Source: Escherichia phage fDHCT2
DNA: 64,000 nt
Reading direction: 5' to 3' (one strand)
Sequence record: OR427838.1
Both the position numbers and the translations under genes were made by a program. Below the pieces are notes generated by a model. It had not been told where the DNA came from. It did no database searches and saw nothing but the letters and a program-made list of their open reading frames with translations. Positions 33,046 to 37,744 of this stretch are shown piece after piece; within the stretch, counting starts at the first letter, position 1, and the number at the start of each line of letters is the position of its first letter.

Positions 33046-34863
33046 TTACGACATCCAGGCCTTACGGAGTTGAGGGTCGTTCCCGAGGAGCATTTCGAAC
33101 TGTTCTTTCCAATCTTCAGGCAATTGAACTACATCAAATTTAGGGTCTTGAATCATTCGACGGTATTCAGCCTTCTCAAGAGAACCTAGTCCTTTGATAT
33201 AACGAATAGAATGTTTTGGTAGAGAGTCCTTAGCTTTGGTATAACTAGGGACATCATAGAACCATTCTTGTTCTTTACCAATCTGAGCAATAATTACAGG
33301 AGTTTTACAGAATCGTACTCGGCCTTGTTCGAATAATTCAGGCCATTGACTAAAGAAGGCTAACAATGACGGATAAATCGAGCCTGTACCATCCACATCG
33401 GCATCAGTCATAATAGCGATATTACGATAGTTAGTTTTATCTGCAGGTTCGCCAATAACCAGTCCAGTGATTGCACAGATATCAAACAATTCTTTGTTCT
33501 TCATGATATCAACTGCAGGCATACCCCAGGTATTCATAACCTTACCACGTAATGGATAACCGCCTTGAAGGTCTTTATTACGTACTTCAATGAAAGGACC
33601 CATTGCTGAATCACCTTCAGTCAAGAACAGAGTTGTATCGGCATCTTTACCATACATATTGGCTTTAATATGCTTATGGACTTTAGCTTTCAAAGCTTTC
33701 TTAGCGGCTTTTGTTTCTGCTGCTTTTTCGGCTGCTAATTTACGTGCTAAAGCAGCTTCGACGATAGGCATAATCAACCCATCGACCTTAAGAATCATCG
33801 ATGCAATTTTCTTAGCATCAATTTGGATATGGCTACGAATCTCGCCAAACGGGGAGGTCAAACGCTCTTTAGTCTGGGAATCAAAACGCATATTACTCAT
33901 ATCACGAATGAACATTACCATCGTAAGGCATTCTTTAACACGAGCCTTAGTTACTTCAATTCCACGATATTTCTTTTTAATACCAGGCAGAAGGTGCTCA
34001 CAAATGTCATCGAATACACATTCAACGTGGTGTCCACCATTCTTGGTATGGATATTATTTACATACGTCAGTTGACGGAACCCATCCGGAGAAGGAGTAA
34101 ATGCCATCGAAACATTATCAGTTTCTTGGATTACAAAGTCATCACCAAATTGCTTAGCATACTTTTTAAAGTTGCCATCTACTTTTTTACCATTAAAAGT
34201 AAATTGGATATCAGGATAAATTACAGCTAGGGTTTTAAGACGATCTAAAGTAATATCCAGATAAATTTGGGTCAAACTATTTTCTTCGAAATGGTTAAAG
34301 TCTGGAGTGAATATAACCGAAGTGCCTTTATCTTTGGATTTCTTAGTAGTCCAACCTTTGTTTTCCATTCCGTTAGAACAGTTAACAGTAATCTCATTCT
34401 CGCCATCAGAGGTGATGCCTGTGAACAAAACAGAGAAGATATTAGTTAAACTACTACCGACACCATTCATGCCGCCTGTCTTACGCTCAGCGTCATCTCC
34501 AAAGTTACCACCAGCCTTTGGAATAGTCCATGCAGCTACAGGACCCGGAATTTGTTCCCTGTTTTGGTCAGTAACCATTGCTTGTGGAATACCACGGCCA
34601 TTATCGGAAACTGAAACCTGATTATTCTTAATTCGGACATCAATTTTGTTTGCGAATTTAAAATTAGTACGAATAGCTTCATCGACAGAGTTATCAATGA
34701 TTTCGTCAATTAATTTAACTAGCCCTGGAACATAGTTCACCTGGGTAAAATTACCAAACAGGAATCGACCGTGAGCTTCATTAGCACTTGAGCCAATATA
34801 CATCCCACTACGTTTTTTGATATGTTCAATGTCGGACAGTACTTTAATTTCATTCTTAATCAT
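33046..34863 (-). CDS. 39: DNA topoisomerase II large subunit (GyrB-like), continuous 605-aa form
   Basis: ATPase N-terminus; TOPRIM block DADVDG; the C-terminal region that T4 encodes as separate gene 60 is fused here. Confidence 0.9.
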   Translation of the reverse strand: MIKNEIKVLSDIEHIKKRSGMYIGSSANEAHGRFLFGNFTQVNYVPGLVKLIDEIIDNSVDEAIRTNFKFANKIDVRIKNNQVSVSDNGRGIPQAMVTDQNREQIPGPVAAWTIPKAGGNFGDDAERKTGGMNGVGSSLTNIFSVLFTGITSDGENEITVNCSNGMENKGWTTKKSKDKGTSVIFTPDFNHFEENSLTQIYLDITLDRLKTLAVIYPDIQFTFNGKKVDGNFKKYAKQFGDDFVIQETDNVSMAFTPSPDGFRQLTYVNNIHTKNGGHHVECVFDDICEHLLPGIKKKYRGIEVTKARVKECLTMVMFIRDMSNMRFDSQTKERLTSPFGEIRSHIQIDAKKIASMILKVDGLIMPIVEAALARKLAAEKAAETKAAKKALKAKVHKHIKANMYGKDADTTLFLTEGDSAMGPFIEVRNKDLQGGYPLRGKVMNTWGMPAVDIMKNKELFDICAITGLVIGEPADKTNYRNIAIMTDADVDGTGSIYPSLLAFFSQWPELFEQGRVRFCKTPVIIAQIGKEQEWFYDVPSYTKAKDSLPKHSIRYIKGLGSLEKAEYRRMIQDPKFDVVQLPEDWKEQFEMLLGNDPQLRKAWMS

Positions 34864-35374: not shown

Positions 35375-35761
35375 TTATTCCTTAAAGTGGGCTTTCAACA
35401 TCTGGTAAACGGTCCAGGCTTCAGAATTATTGGAGATAGTGATTTTGGTCAAAGGGAATTCGCTTGGCTCAGATGGAGCTGCGTCTTCAGACTGGTCTTC
35501 GTCTTCACTGTCAACTTCAACCATTTCTGTAAAGAATTTACGCTCACTAGCGTATATAACCATATCTTTATTATCGCCGTAAACCAGGTCGAAGTTGATT
35601 ACGCATCCGTTTGAAATTTTAACCGGGGAAAAACCTTCACCTTCAATAATAACATCGGCTACAATATTATTGATATCTCTACGACGGAATTCAGCTTCTG
35701 CCGCATCATCTTTAAAATAGTACCATTTACCTTTTTCAAATTCGAGTTCTTGATTAAGCAT
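35375..35761 (-). CDS. Hypothetical acidic protein (start refined to ATG 35761)
   Basis: Track ORF 35375..35854; 8-nt ATGCTTAA overlap with upstream gene. Confidence 0.45.
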   Translation of the reverse strand: MLNQELEFEKGKWYYFKDDAAEAEFRRRDINNIVADVIIEGEGFSPVKISNGCVINFDLVYGDNKDMVIYASERKFFTEMVEVDSEDEDQSEDAAPSEPSEFPLTKITISNNSEAWTVYQMLKAHFKE

Positions 35762-35972
35762 TGTAAGTTTCCTTCCAGAAGTCAGTACCTTCAGCAGTGA
35801 TTTCACGGAACACTGCATAGATAGGGTTTTTATCACCTTGATTTTCGTATACATAAACCGACGTTAAATGAGAAAACGTATCAGAATGTTCCTTTTGAAC
35901 CACGATTAAATCAGGGTTGAACAGAACATCTTCAAATTCTTCACGAGTAGAGTTCACAGTAACTTTAGCCAT
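35754..35972 (-). CDS. Hypothetical small protein
   Basis: 72 aa; GAGGA SD; early promoter element upstream. Confidence 0.45.
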   Translation of the reverse strand: MAKVTVNSTREEFEDVLFNPDLIVVQKEHSDTFSHLTSVYVYENQGDKNPIYAVFREITAEGTDFWKETYNA

Positions 35973-36046: not shown

Positions 36047-36613
36047 TTATGCAAAATGAATATCAGCGTACTCAACGATAAAGCTCTCAGGAACAACCTT
36101 AAAAGTTCCAAGGAACACGATATTATACAATTTGACACCTTCTTCAACCCACTGGTCGGTGATGTAACCGGACATACTAGTGGTTTCATAAGTCGGACCG
36201 TACTTGCATTTGTATTCAAACGGTTTAGGTGAAACGAAAAAGACACCTTTACCTAATTTCCATTTGAAATCAACGCCGACATGAGATTGGTCAATAGTTT
36301 CAACGTCTTGAGCTACTACGCCACGGATATCATTGCTTTCACATACATACCCATCATGGGATTCAACTTCTTCAACTACAGGAGCGATGTATCCGGTAAA
36401 TTCAGTCGATTCCAAGAATTTAGCACGCACATAACCGAATTGAGTTTCAGTCTGGGGATTTTTAGGAATGATACGAACTTTTACTTCATAATTTTCTTCA
36501 CTGACACCTTCTTTAAGTTGGATGCTAACAACTTCAACTAAACTGCCCGCAGCTTTTGAACGAGACTTTTTGGATACACGAACGATACTGCCGATATCGG
36601 AAATAGTAATCAT
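36047..36613 (-). CDS. Hypothetical protein, paralog pair member 1
   Basis: 188 aa; C-terminal block GYITDQWVEEGVKLYNIVFLGTFKVVPESF shared with next gene. Confidence 0.5.
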   Translation of the reverse strand: MITISDIGSIVRVSKKSRSKAAGSLVEVVSIQLKEGVSEENYEVKVRIIPKNPQTETQFGYVRAKFLESTEFTGYIAPVVEEVESHDGYVCESNDIRGVVAQDVETIDQSHVGVDFKWKLGKGVFFVSPKPFEYKCKYGPTYETTSMSGYITDQWVEEGVKLYNIVFLGTFKVVPESFIVEYADIHFA

Positions 36614-36655
36614 AATTTTTCTCTCTTGGTTAAAGGTTTATAATCCATGAGAGCC

Positions 36656-36684
36656 ATTATAACATGGCTCTCGATAAAGTAAAC
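36656..36684 (-). promoter_or_regulatory. Sigma-70 promoter GTTTAC-N17-TGT-TATAAT with palindrome around -10
   Basis: Inverted repeat gagagccat / atggctctc flanks the -10. Confidence 0.5.
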
Positions 36685-36686
36685 TA

Positions 36687-37238
36687 TTAATTCAATACAT
36701 TAACCACTGCACTACGAGGTACTACGCTAAAATCACCAGCATGTACAACGTTCAGGAGTTCAACACCATCTTCAATCCACTGGTCTGTTACCCAACCACA
36801 GATAGGATTATCAAAAGGACGACGGATAGCCACTGCAGCACACAGAAGGTCGGTAGGGTCTTGTTCGACTTCGACTTCACGGAAAAGCCCAAATTCAGCT
36901 TCATAGACTAGGATTTTCTCTACTTTGTTATTATCTAACCGGCGGCCATGTATTACGTAAGATTTAGTAAACCAGTCACTTTTGGCGAATTCTTCAACAA
37001 TAAATTCGCCTTCGCCAAAAACATCAGTCAGAGTTTTATAACCGGAAATCAAGGCCTTAGTTTTAATTTCAGGTTCAACCAGTTTGTAGGTTTTGCCGAT
37101 TTCGATAGTCTGAGTAGTCATAGCGGTTTCCTTAATTTCCAGTGGTTTAACAGGGCATACATAAGTGCTTAAAACATCAAAATCAATCAGTTTAGCTGCC
37201 GGATTCGGGGTGTATTTAGGGTTGTAATTAAATTTCAT
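36687..37238 (-). CDS. Hypothetical protein, paralog pair member 2
   Basis: 183 aa; C-terminal block GWVTDQWIEDGVELLNVVHAGDFSVVPRSA. Confidence 0.5.
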   Translation of the reverse strand: MKFNYNPKYTPNPAAKLIDFDVLSTYVCPVKPLEIKETAMTTQTIEIGKTYKLVEPEIKTKALISGYKTLTDVFGEGEFIVEEFAKSDWFTKSYVIHGRRLDNNKVEKILVYEAEFGLFREVEVEQDPTDLLCAAVAIRRPFDNPICGWVTDQWIEDGVELLNVVHAGDFSVVPRSAVVNVLN

Positions 37239-37744
37239 ATTGTTCTCAATTCAATAAAATCTACGAGTTCGGCATAGGATTTGCGGAACATTACTTGGCG
37301 GTCACCAATGACAACCTCATCTTCAGGTATTTCGTAAACAGCAAGATAGAATCCTTTAGAAGATAATTCTTCACGCTCTTCACGAGTGAACCAGCGCATC
37401 ATATCATACTCGCTGGCAAAAGCAAAATGGTAGAGATTAACAAACCAACCTGGAATATAATCATCACAGCCTTCATAATCAGGCTGGTTCCACTTAGTTC
37501 TAATGCTTTTATTAGAATTTTCCACCAACAAATTGTCTTGACCGGGTAGCGGAATATTTTTATTATTGGTATGGTGGTGCCTAAAATTGGGTCTGTCGAA
37601 ACCTACTTCCAATAACCAGCCTTCACTCCATTCGTCAAATGAGCCTCTATACGGTGTTAATTGGCGGCACTGTAGGTGGGTGATTGCTATGACATCGCTG
37701 TTATCTAAGATACTAAACGATGACTCAACTCGATAAATTTTCAT
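37235..37744 (-). CDS. Hypothetical protein
   Basis: 169-aa ORF; ATGA overlap; early promoter element upstream. Confidence 0.5.
   Translation of the reverse strand: MKIYRVESSFSILDNSDVIAITHLQCRQLTPYRGSFDEWSEGWLLEVGFDRPNFRHHHTNNKNIPLPGQDNLLVENSNKSIRTKWNQPDYEGCDDYIPGWFVNLYHFAFASEYDMMRWFTREEREELSSKGFYLAVYEIPEDEVVIGDRQVMFRKSYAELVDFIELRTI

What the first reader, a model, noticed from the sequence alone, without database searches (positions are those of the whole stretch)
36047..37238. Adjacent paralogous genes sharing a C-terminal TDQW...VVP domain
The 188-aa and 183-aa proteins share GY(I/V)TDQW(V/I)E(E/D)GV.L.N.V..G.F.VVP.S near their C-termini but differ N-terminally, indicating domain-level duplication with diversified N-terminal modules.
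Basis: seen in the sequence. Interest (0 to 1): 0.4.

Follow-up and report, generated by a model that had tools for sequence, protein, structure and literature searches.

The report
Known T4 MotB/MotB.1 paralog pair

Summary
ORFs 36047-36613 (188 aa) and 36687-37238 (183 aa), both on the minus strand, share a C-terminal stretch: BLASTP 18/34 identical, E 3e-11; Smith-Waterman z = 15 against shuffles; family hhalign 37 columns, E 2e-13. The window is a Dhakavirus-type T4-like E. coli phage, and the genes are orthologs of T4 motB (Pfam PF17613, 206 bits) and motB.1 (phrog_2333, full length), in T4 gene order (39, 39.1, 39.2, goF, cef, motB, motB.1, motB.2, dexA, dda). Patterson-West et al. 2021 (PMC7827196) already state that MotB and MotB.1 share a CTD, differ in NTD and probably arose by duplication. 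Kim et al. 2025 (PMC12152347) describe the MotB.1 NTD as LSm-like.

Refinements made here:
- Single-copy proteins from outgroup Tevenvirinae (KOW-type NTD plus MotB.1-type tail) bridge the two families and extend the homology to the whole CTD.
- The duplication is old (third codon positions 38% identical).
- The module is acidic and restricted to 27 clusters among 1.84 billion representatives.
- AlphaFold2/Foldseek point weakly to tandem SH3/Tudor/KOW-like barrels, not an OB fold.

Function of the shared module remains inferred. Novelty: already known. Interest: low.

The parts
36047..36613 (-). motB ortholog, 188 aa (stop codon included)
   Evidence: Pfam PF17613 motB at 206 bits against a cut-off of 25; phrog_1671 at E 2.7e-70 over the full length. 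The syntenic gene is annotated motB in IME08.
36404..36613 (-). MotB N-terminal KOW/SH3-like barrel (residues 1-70), basic (pI 9.45)
   Evidence: Matches PF17613 profile positions 2-67. AF2 gives five strands with a short helix before the last strand, pLDDT about 70-88. Charge. The KOW assignment comes from HHpred in PMC7827196.
36287..36403 (-). MotB acidic disordered linker (residues 71-109); an insertion relative to T4 MotB
   Evidence: AF2 pLDDT about 30. Net charge -9. Absent from T4 MotB in alignment A1.
36050..36286 (-). MotB C-terminal five-strand beta domain (residues 110-188)
   Evidence: AF2 strands 123-135, 141-157, 160-167, 170-175 and 179-182, pLDDT 76-92. Matches PF17613 profile positions 84-161.
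36068..36178 (-). Shared core in MotB (residues 146-182)
   Evidence: hhalign 37 columns, E 2e-13; BLASTP E 3e-11.
36687..37238 (-). motB.1 ortholog, 183 aa (stop codon included)
   Evidence: phrog_2333 at E 4.5e-87, residues 1-183 on profile 1-210/210. The syntenic gene is annotated motB.1 in IME08, JS10 and JS98. 70% identical to T4 MotB.1 over residues 104-183.
37113..37238 (-). MotB.1 disordered leader (residues 1-42) carrying the conserved peptide LIDFDVLSTYVCPVKPLEIKE
   Evidence: AF2 pLDDT about 35. Conserved across alignment A3. A peptide HMM trained on proteins with the peptide in another position gives this as its top hit in the window, marginally (E 0.011). Near-identical peptide in P0083 and P0241 at different positions.
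36864..37112 (-). MotB.1 N-terminal barrel with helix (residues 43-125); candidate LSm/SH3-like domain
   Evidence: AF2 gives strand, helix 61-74, three strands, helix 113-118, strand, pLDDT about 85. phrog_622 (the family of the neighbouring goF-like ORF) at E 1.9e-5. Sequence links to the T4-type NTD and to GoF are not significant.
36690..36863 (-). MotB.1 C-terminal domain (residues 126-183), DPTDLLC...GWVTDQWIEDGVELLNVVHAGDFSVVPRS, acidic (pI 4.2)
   Evidence: AF2 strands 135-140, 143-156, 159-166, 169-174 and 178-180, pLDDT about 87. hhalign to the bridging proteins gives 56 columns at 71% identity, E 6.5e-29. Nearly invariant in A3 and A4. Charge.
36696..36809 (-). Shared core in MotB.1 (residues 144-181)
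   Evidence: hhalign.
36649..36684 (-). Early-type promoter-like site (GTTTAC, 16-nt spacer, then TATAAT preceded by TG as an extended -10) upstream of motB. Its -10 lies in the loop of a 9-bp perfect hairpin (36649-36672).
   Evidence: Consensus scan 10/12 with TG; sequence read. Fold -17.5 kcal/mol, z -5.85. T4 has a different stem at the same place, -19.7 kcal/mol, z -4.66. Function not tested.
37235..37744 (-). motB.2 ortholog (context). Its stop overlaps the motB.1 start as ATGA.
   Evidence: phrog_1106 at E 3.4e-52; junction sequence; IME08 annotation.
35375..35854 (-). goF-like ORF (context). Belongs to phrog_622, the family weakly hit by the MotB.1 NTD.
   Evidence: phrog_622 at E 9.6e-27, plus goF phrogs; IME08 annotation goF.

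Best explanation
These are the Dhakavirus-type orthologs of the T4 early genes motB and motB.1, a tandem pair of paralogs.

Architecture. Each protein is two small beta-barrels joined by flexible sequence. MotB is a basic KOW-type barrel, an acidic disordered linker, and a C-terminal barrel. MotB.1 is a disordered leader peptide, a helix-containing (LSm/SH3-like) barrel, and the same C-terminal barrel.

Likely history (inferred). The ancestor was a single gene with a KOW barrel, a linker peptide and the CTD, as still found in outgroup Tevenvirinae. It duplicated in tandem in the lineage leading to the E. coli T-even genera. The downstream copy (motB) kept the KOW barrel while its CTD diverged. 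The upstream copy (motB.1) kept an ancestral-like CTD but had its N-terminal barrel replaced.

Function. Known from T4 experiments: MotB binds DNA tightly and non-specifically, changes how H-NS sits on DNA, and raises burst size about two-fold. MotB.1 is dispensable in the laboratory and its role is unknown. Inferred here, at about 35-40% confidence: the shared acidic CTD is not the main nucleic-acid-binding surface. It is more likely a common interaction or self-association module, and the interchangeable N-terminal barrels supply the DNA or RNA contact.
For: Identity and orthology:
- PF17613 at 206 bits and phrog_1671 for the 188-aa protein; phrog_2333 over the full length for the 183-aa protein.
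- About 92% nucleotide identity to Dhakavirus phages.
- T4 gene order, with genes annotated motB, motB.1 and motB.2 in IME08.
- T4 itself has the same adjacent pair.

Published: the shared CTD, different NTDs and a duplication hypothesis are stated in PMC7827196. The LSm-like NTD and the lack of a delta-motB.1 phenotype are in PMC12152347.

Whole-CTD homology: 8 bridging proteins align to MotB over 138 columns (E 7e-26) and to MotB.1 over 56 columns at 71% identity (E 6.5e-29).

Single copy in outgroups:
- One matching place per record in the listed Klebsiella, Enterobacter, Edwardsiella, Kosakonia and Pectobacterium phage records.
- Loci of PEi20, CIP9 and Potts1 each show one gene.
- The outgroup N-terminus matches a MotB-NTD-only profile; 11 of 11 proteins rank above all 953 decoys.
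- The outgroup core is 71-85% identical to the MotB.1 core and 50-53% to the MotB core.

Old duplication: third codon positions are 38% identical and the longest exact DNA run is 9 nt.

Fold:
- AF2 CTD strand patterns are parallel in both proteins, with a short helix between strands 4 and 5.
- Both models retrieve tandem Tudor, Agenet, SAWADEE, KOW6-7 and 'SH3-like tandem' structures.
- The MotB.1 model matches a true MotB (163 aa) in BFVD over 169 alignment columns at E 3e-6.

Role of the CTD:
- The core has pI 4.1-4.3 and net charge -3/-4, against pI 9.45 for the MotB NTD.
- The CTD is nearly invariant while NTDs are swapped, duplicated or deleted across architectures of 141-251 aa.
Against: - The functional assignment of the CTD is inference only. 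The published HHpred analysis called MotB residues 69-149 an OB-fold DNA-binding domain (PMC7827196).
- All Foldseek PDB matches are weak (best E 1.9e-3, none at or below 1e-3, rmsd above 11 A), because two-domain models with floppy linkers were searched whole. Domain-only searches could not be run.
- AF2 alignments were shallow (29-35 sequences, Neff about 2).
- The direction of evolution rests on parsimony over three inspected loci and on identity over 34-56 residues, not on a rooted phylogeny.
- Pfam's MotB model detects only the tail in the outgroup proteins, and BLASTP of the NTDs alone finds nothing. The KOW-type NTD in outgroups therefore rests on profile-level evidence.
- The LSm-family link of this window's MotB.1 NTD is not significant by sequence.
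Confidence: 0.85

Rival explanations
1. The shared C-terminal domain is an OB-fold (cold-shock/eIF5A-like) nucleic-acid-binding domain, as proposed from HHpred. Both proteins would bind DNA or RNA through it, with the N-terminal modules modulating specificity or partners.
For: HHpred assignment of T4 MotB residues 69-149 to SCOPe b.40.4.5 (eIF5A 1BKB, 2EIF), reported in PMC7827196. MotB is an experimentally tight, non-specific DNA binder (same paper). The domain is a five-stranded all-beta unit, which an OB fold also is.
Against: The core is acidic, with pI 4.1-4.3. The models have no helix between strands 3 and 4; they have a short helix between strands 4 and 5, the usual SH3-like pattern (fold rule from general knowledge). 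No OB or eIF5A structure appears among the top 50 Foldseek PDB hits of either model, which are Tudor, Agenet, KOW and SH3-like tandems. The MotB.1 CTD is only about 57 residues, which is short for an OB fold.
Confidence: 0.25
2. The two-gene state is ancestral. The single outgroup gene (MotB-type NTD plus MotB.1-type CTD) would be a derived fusion or recombinant of the two.
For: Recombinant and deletion products do occur at this locus. One example is the 43-aa P0270, which joins the MotB.2 start to the MotB.1 tail. Architectures range from 141 to 251 aa.
Against: Gene order is motB.1 then motB in the direction of transcription. A simple deletion would therefore join a MotB.1 NTD to a MotB CTD, the opposite of what is seen. 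All listed outgroup phage records have one matching place.
Confidence: 0.1
3. The similarity reflects recent gene conversion or recombination between neighbouring genes rather than an old duplication.
For: The genes are adjacent and co-oriented, and T4-like phages recombine intensively (general knowledge).
Against: DNA identity over the core is 58.8%, third codon positions 38%, and the longest exact run 9 nt. Only 9 of 18 conserved residues share a codon. The same level of divergence is seen in the T4 pair.
Confidence: 0.03
4. The similarity is due to chance or composition.
For: The match is short (34-37 residues).
Against: E 3e-11, z = 15, hhalign E 2e-13. The motif sits at a fixed distance from the C-terminus in 205 of 213 family members: 33 residues (occasionally 29 or 34) in MotB.1 and 37 (once 39) in MotB.
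Confidence: 0.01

Closest known systems
Bacteriophage T4 MotB (modifier of transcription B; Pfam PF17613)
   Same: The 188-aa protein matches the full Pfam model (206 bits), is 62% identical to T4 MotB in a MAFFT alignment, sits at the same locus position, and has the same KOW-type NTD plus C-terminal beta domain.
   Different: It carries a 39-residue acidic, predicted-disordered insertion (residues 71-109) between the domains that T4 MotB lacks. DNA binding, H-NS effects and toxicity were not tested for this ortholog.
Bacteriophage T4 MotB.1 (phrog_2333; 'Category 2/4' MotB.1 homologs of Patterson-West et al. 2021)
   Same: Same position (between motB.2 and motB). Same C-terminal tail, 70% identical over residues 104-183. 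Full-length match to phrog_2333.
   Different: The N-terminal 103 residues do not match T4 MotB.1 by tblastn or by a window-type NTD profile (E 0.25-1). By its position in the paper's Table S4, the Dhakavirus form belongs to 'Category 4: another distinct NTD motif' (inference from list order). It also has a 42-residue disordered leader with a conserved peptide.
GoF / Frd.2 / MotB.1 LSm-like NTD family (Kim et al. 2025, PMC12152347)
   Same: The MotB.1 NTD model is a small bent beta-barrel with a helix. Residues 44-127 hit phrog_622, the family of the neighbouring goF-like ORF, at E 1.9e-5.
   Different: Direct tests are not significant: BLASTP E 0.79 and HMM E 0.04-0.5. Membership of this particular NTD type is unproven.
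Tandem small-beta-barrel proteins (53BP1/UHRF1 tandem Tudor, Agenet, SAWADEE, Spt5/DSIF KOW6-KOW7, KIN SH3-like tandem)
   Same: These are the best PDB structural matches of both AF2 models, aligned across both domains (probability 0.94-1.0).
   Different: Sequence identity is only 8-16%, E is at best 1.9e-3, and rmsd is large. This is a fold-class resemblance only. No evidence of methyl-lysine reading or of common descent.
Single-copy 'MotB' of Kanagawavirus/Marfavirus and related phages (PEi20, CIP9, Potts1)
   Same: Same locus (dexA, motB.2, motB, cef, goF). The NTD is related to the MotB NTD and the CTD is 71-85% identical to the MotB.1 core.
   Different: These phages have one gene where the window has two. 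The linker peptide sits between NTD and CTD, not at the N-terminus.

Membership tests
MotB (Pfam PF17613) | Full-length match to the family model above the curated threshold | tested here: met
   The 188-aa protein scores 206.1 bits against a cut-off of 25. The isolated NTD (profile 2-67) and CTD (profile 84-161) both match.
MotB (Pfam PF17613) | Conserved genome position between cef and motB.1/dexA in the gene 39-dda early region | tested here: met
   Window order is 39, 39.1, 39.2, goF, cef, motB, motB.1, motB.2, dexA, dexA.1, dda, identical to IME08; T4 has the same order apart from an extra dexA.2.
MotB (Pfam PF17613) | Tight non-specific DNA binding, altered H-NS footprint, toxicity on overexpression (T4 experiments) | not testable with these tools
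   Known only for T4 MotB (PMC6070864, PMC7827196).
MotB.1 (phrog_2333; T4p012 family) | Full-length match to the family profile | tested here: met
   phrog_2333 at E 4.5e-87, residues 1-183 on profile 1-210/210. 120 close homologs of 176-250 aa.
MotB.1 (phrog_2333; T4p012 family) | Invariant C-terminal tail DPTDLLC...GWVTDQWIEDGVELLNVVHAG.F.VVPRS shared with T4 MotB.1 | tested here: met
   70% identity to T4 MotB.1 over residues 104-183. Invariant columns 127-175 in A4, which includes T4-type members.
MotB.1 (phrog_2333; T4p012 family) | Gene immediately upstream of motB and downstream of motB.2 | tested here: met
   The stop of motB.2 overlaps the motB.1 start as ATGA.
LSm-like NTD family (GoF / MotB.1 / Frd.2) | N-terminal five-stranded bent beta-barrel homologous to the GoF, Frd.2 and T4 MotB.1 NTDs | tested here: inconclusive
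   The AF2 barrel with helix is confident (pLDDT about 85), and phrog_622 scores E 1.9e-5. However, the window-type NTD profile gives E 0.25-1 against T4-type NTDs and E 0.044 against the window's GoF, and BLASTP to GoF gives E 0.79.
OB-fold (cold-shock/eIF5A-like) for the shared CTD | Five-stranded barrel with the connecting helix between strands 3 and 4, and structural similarity to OB-fold proteins | tested here: inconclusive
   The models show no helix between strands 3 and 4 and a short helix between strands 4 and 5. No OB-fold protein appears in the top 50 PDB matches. This leans against OB, but it rests on predicted whole-protein models and weak E-values. A domain-only search was not possible.
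SH3-like small beta-barrel (Tudor/KOW/Sm class) for the shared CTD | About 60-residue five-strand barrel with a 3-10 helix between strands 4 and 5, and structural matches to members of the class | tested here: inconclusive
   The secondary-structure pattern fits in both models. The top PDB matches are tandem Tudor, Agenet, SAWADEE, KOW and SH3-like proteins at probability 0.94-1.0, but with E between 1.9e-3 and 1e-1 and high rmsd.

The most novel reading that the evidence does not exclude
The conserved acidic, Trp-rich C-terminal barrel (GWVTDQW...) might be a Tudor/'Royal-family'-like reader or anchor domain that recognises one specific partner. Candidates are a host nucleoid protein such as H-NS or StpA, or a feature of modified T-even DNA. 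The MotB/MotB.1 family would then be a phage toolkit in which one constant anchor barrel is combined with interchangeable nucleic-acid-binding barrels (KOW, or one or two LSm-like barrels), so that different activities are delivered to the same target. The conserved, predicted-disordered 'D.D..S.MY..P.KP' peptide that moves around the architectures would be a second, linear interaction motif.
Probability: 0.15. Interest if true: 0.5.

Novelty: already known. Interest (0 to 1): 0.15.

Why it matters
As a finding it does not change anything. The MotB/MotB.1 relationship is published, and automated annotation already labels both genes with PF17613. The small added value is for T4 specialists:
- The single-copy outgroup gene (KOW NTD plus MotB.1-type CTD) gives a direction to the duplication. 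It suggests MotB.1, not MotB, preserves the ancestral C-terminal domain.
- The shared domain looks like an acidic SH3/Tudor-like barrel rather than a DNA-binding OB fold. That would redirect mutagenesis of MotB's DNA binding toward the KOW domain.
- The reference T4 motB.1 is frameshifted inside the shared module, which may bear on published negative results for MotB.1.

Tried and rejected
- Direct BLASTP of MotB.1 against the neighbouring goF-like ORF was not significant (E 0.79).
- HMMs of the MotB.1 NTD against all window ORFs reached GoF only at E 0.04-0.5. I had first read MotB.1 as a 'GoF-NTD plus MotB-CTD chimera', and I downgraded that to inconclusive for this NTD type.
- I also withdrew my assumption, based on alignment A4, that the window-type and T4-type MotB.1 NTDs are demonstrably homologous. 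A profile built only from window-type NTDs does not detect T4-type NTDs (E 0.25-1).
- BLASTP of the MotB NTD against an outgroup NTD found nothing; only profile methods see that link.
- Sequence searches of both family profiles against PDB chains gave no meaningful hit.
- A permissive Pfam scan of the isolated domains gave nothing beyond PF17613.
- The linker-peptide HMM gave only a marginal hit (E 0.011, with a decoy at 0.015). I rely more on the near-identical peptides in P0083 and P0241.
- Two long hits in the representative search (P0271 at 1558 aa, P0272 at 842 aa, with 6-7 short stretches each, E 4e-6 to 5e-5) were not examined and may be repeat artefacts.
Full report
**What is there.** The interval holds two minus-strand ORFs exactly as described: 36047-36613 (188 aa) and 36687-37238 (183 aa). 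The surrounding minus-strand genes are a topoisomerase II large subunit (33046-34863), small ORFs, a goF-like ORF, cef, the two ORFs in question, a 169-aa ORF, a DexA-type exonuclease and a Dda-type helicase. The 3.5-kb region is about 92% identical at the DNA level to Dhakavirus coliphages (vB_EcoM_FB, QL01, WG01, IME08). In IME08 the syntenic genes are annotated 39, 39.1, 39.2, goF, cef, motB, motB.1, motB.2, dexA, dexA.1, dda. T4 has the same order, with MotB at 162 aa and MotB.1 at 143 aa.

**Checking the observation.**
- BLASTP of the two window proteins gives one significant segment: 18/34 identical, 26/34 positive, no gaps, E 3e-11.
- A Smith-Waterman shuffle test gives 108 against 31.6 +/- 5.0, z = 15.
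- Family profiles (35 MotB and 22 MotB.1 sequences) align over 37 columns at 98% probability, E 2e-13.
- A MotB.1-CTD profile finds only these two ORFs among 953 stop-to-stop fragments of the window.
- In 205 of 213 family members the T[DE]QW motif lies at a near-constant distance from the C-terminus: 33 residues (occasionally 29 or 34) in MotB.1 and 37 (once 39) in MotB.

The only slip is that MotB.1 reads GW, not GY.

**Identity.** The 188-aa protein is a full-length MotB (PF17613 at 206 bits; phrog_1671 at E 2.7e-70). The 183-aa protein is a full-length member of phrog_2333 (E 4.5e-87) and hits PF17613 only with residues 144-178. By tblastn it is the ortholog of the genes annotated motB.1 in JS10, JS98 and IME08, and it matches T4 MotB.1 only over residues 104-183, at 70% identity.

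**What is already published.**
- Patterson-West et al. [quoted passage not shown] They sort 102 homologs into MotB (Category 1) and MotB.1-like groups (Categories 2-4).
- By its place in their Table S4, the Dhakavirus MotB.1 falls in Category 4, 'another distinct NTD motif' (my inference from list order).
- They predicted by HHpred a KOW NTD and an OB-fold CTD for MotB. They showed experimentally that MotB binds DNA non-specifically, alters H-NS footprints and up-regulates H-NS-regulon genes when overexpressed.
- Kim et al. 2025 (PMC12152347) describe the T4 MotB.1 NTD, together with the GoF and Frd.2 NTDs, as an LSm/SH3-like barrel family. They report no phenotype for delta-motB.1.
- A full-text search for 'MotB.1' returns only these two papers.

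**Refinement 1: extent of the shared domain and direction of change.** An exhaustive HMMER search of 1.84 billion representatives with the MotB.1 profile found only 27 clusters, so the module is narrowly restricted. Among them, P0262-P0269 combine a MotB-like N-terminus (MKIGSRVYVS.LSRSKVAGE...) with a MotB.1-like tail (DPTDLLC...GWVTDQWIEDGVELLNVVH).
- Their alignment matches the MotB family over 138 columns (E 7e-26), pairing 'DPTDLLCk.V.F' with MotB's 'DFKWKLG.GV.F'.
- It matches the MotB.1 family over 56 columns at 71% identity (E 6.5e-29).
- By transitivity the whole CTD is homologous, differing mainly by a hairpin insertion of about 13 residues or more.
- A profile built from the MotB NTD alone hits all 11 divergent proteins at their N-termini (E 5e-11 to 3e-2), above every decoy. 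Pfam and BLASTP do not see this.
- These proteins come from Klebsiella, Enterobacter, Edwardsiella, Kosakonia and Pectobacterium phages, with one matching place per listed record.
- The loci of PEi20, CIP9 and Potts1 each show a single gene between dexA/motB.2 and cef.
- The closest of the outgroup cores (P0262-P0264) are 71-85% identical to the MotB.1 core and 50-53% to the MotB core.
- A simple deletion between the tandem genes would give the opposite chimera.

The most parsimonious reading is a tandem duplication of a gene encoding a KOW barrel, a linker peptide and the CTD. After it, motB kept the KOW barrel while its CTD diverged, and motB.1 kept the CTD while its NTD was replaced. The 2021 paper instead scored these outgroup proteins as 'motB 0, motB.1 1'. 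The duplication is old: 58.8% DNA identity over the core, 38% at third positions, and a longest exact run of 9 nt.

**Refinement 2: fold.**
- The AF2 model of MotB (pLDDT 72.5 overall) has an N-terminal barrel at 1-70, a disordered acidic linker at 71-109, and a confident CTD with strands 123-135, 141-157, 160-167, 170-175 and 179-182.
- The AF2 model of MotB.1 (pLDDT 72.7 overall) has a disordered leader at 1-42, a helix-containing barrel at about 45-121, and a CTD with strands 135-140, 143-156, 159-166, 169-174 and 178-180.
- The CTD patterns are parallel. Both show a short helix between strands 4 and 5 and none between strands 3 and 4. From general knowledge, that is the SH3-like pattern rather than the OB pattern.
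- Both whole models retrieve the same PDB class: tandem Tudor (53BP1, UHRF1), Agenet, SAWADEE, DSIF KOW6-7 and the KIN SH3-like tandem. These matches are weak (best E 1.9e-3).
- Against BFVD, the MotB.1 model matches a genuine 163-aa MotB across 169 alignment columns at E 3e-6.

I regard 'two SH3-like barrels in tandem' as the better-supported fold reading, but it is not proven.

**Refinement 3: properties bearing on mechanism.** The shared core is acidic (pI 4.1-4.3, net -3/-4), whereas the MotB KOW barrel is basic (pI 9.45). The CTD is almost invariant within MotB.1, while the N-terminal parts vary widely. The observed architectures, from 141 to 251 aa, are:
- no leader
- T4-type barrel
- T4-type barrel plus peptide
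- leader plus barrel
- an extra N-terminal domain
- tandem barrels, where the second barrel is detected by the first barrel's profile at iE 3e-7

This pattern of a constant tail with interchangeable heads suggests the CTD performs a common task, such as binding a partner or self-association, while the heads contact DNA (KOW) or possibly RNA (LSm-like). T4 MotB.1 has a single cysteine, inside the CTD (DLLC; sequence). The non-reducing dimer reported in PMC12152347 would therefore have to be linked through the CTD, which is weak support. All of this is inference.

**Surroundings.** motB.2 and motB.1 overlap as ATGA, which suggests translational coupling. The 73-bp motB.1-motB spacer has a promoter-like site with GTTTAC, a 16-nt spacer, and TATAAT preceded by TG as an extended -10. 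The region's total count of promoter-like sites is not above shuffles (11 against 8.2 +/- 3.1).

**Verdict.** Interest is low.

Noticed in passing
L004 (T4 NC_000866.4) 692-1051 compared with L002 (T4 MT984581) 2312-2743: The T4 reference genome has one extra G inside the motB.1 codons for TDQW-IED (ATGGATTGGAAGATGG against ATGGATT-GAAGATGG). This frameshifts MotB.1 to 119 aa (13.8 kDa, ending ...TDQWIGRWR) and removes about 24 residues of the conserved shared module. The 143-aa form is seen on 256 contigs. Kim et al. 2025 quote a 13.8-kDa monomer, so their MotB.1 experiments may have used the truncated form (inference).
   Followed up: partly
window 36649-36684, minus strand (motB.1-motB spacer): The -10 hexamer of an early-type promoter-like site lies in the loop of a perfect 9-bp hairpin (GAGAGCCAT/ATGGCTCTC; -17.5 kcal/mol, z -5.9). 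T4 has a hairpin at the same place with a different stem (GGGACCA/TGGTCCC; -19.7 kcal/mol, z -4.7). The structure is therefore conserved while the sequence is not. It has no U-run, so it is not a classic intrinsic terminator.
   Followed up: partly
window 37113-37238 (MotB.1 residues 1-42), and proteins P0083, P0241, P0233, P0263: A short conserved peptide, predicted disordered ((I/F)D(F/M)D(V/I).S.MY..P.KP), occurs N-terminal to the barrel in window-type MotB.1, between barrel and CTD in RB68/Sf25-type MotB.1, and between the KOW barrel and the CTD in single-copy outgroup proteins. P0083 FDMDIASMYGTLVKPLE and P0241 FDMDIACMYGTLVKPIE are nearly identical. It looks like a mobile linear motif. 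The HMM test was only marginal (E 0.011).
   Followed up: partly
proteins P0245, P0250, P0257 (251 aa; VR25/UPEC01-type) and P0064, P0070, P0248 (244-250 aa): Some MotB.1 relatives carry two tandem N-terminal barrels; the second is detected by the first barrel's profile at iE 3e-7. Others carry an additional unrelated N-terminal domain of about 80 residues ahead of the leader peptide.
   Followed up: partly
protein P0270 (43 aa, metagenomic): This protein is the first 14 residues of MotB.2 (MKIYRVESSFSILD, identical to the window's motB.2 start at 37744) fused to the last 28 residues of MotB.1. It is apparently a deletion remnant, and recalls the 29-aa RB69 peptide ('Category 3') of Patterson-West 2021.
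   Followed up: no
window 36287-36403 (MotB residues 71-109): The Dhakavirus MotB carries a 39-residue, strongly acidic (net -9), predicted-disordered insertion between its two barrels. T4 MotB lacks it. By eye it shares an 'SH..DGYV' element with the linkers of the outgroup single-copy proteins, but this was not formally tested.
   Followed up: no
window 35375-35972, minus strand (goF-like ORF and cef): The maximal goF-like ORF (159 aa, 35375-35854) overlaps cef (35754-35972) by 101 nt. The family match starts at residue 38, so the true start is probably Met32 (about 35761), which gives an 8-nt overlap with the end of cef. Annotations of relatives (IME08 goF at 187 aa) may be over-extended.
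   Followed up: no
proteins P0271 (1558 aa) and P0272 (842 aa) from the representative search: Two long proteins matched the MotB.1 profile in 6-7 short stretches each (E 4e-6 and 5e-5; profile positions 43-93 and 115-150). They could be repeat proteins built from similar small barrels, or low-complexity artefacts. They were not examined.
   Followed up: no
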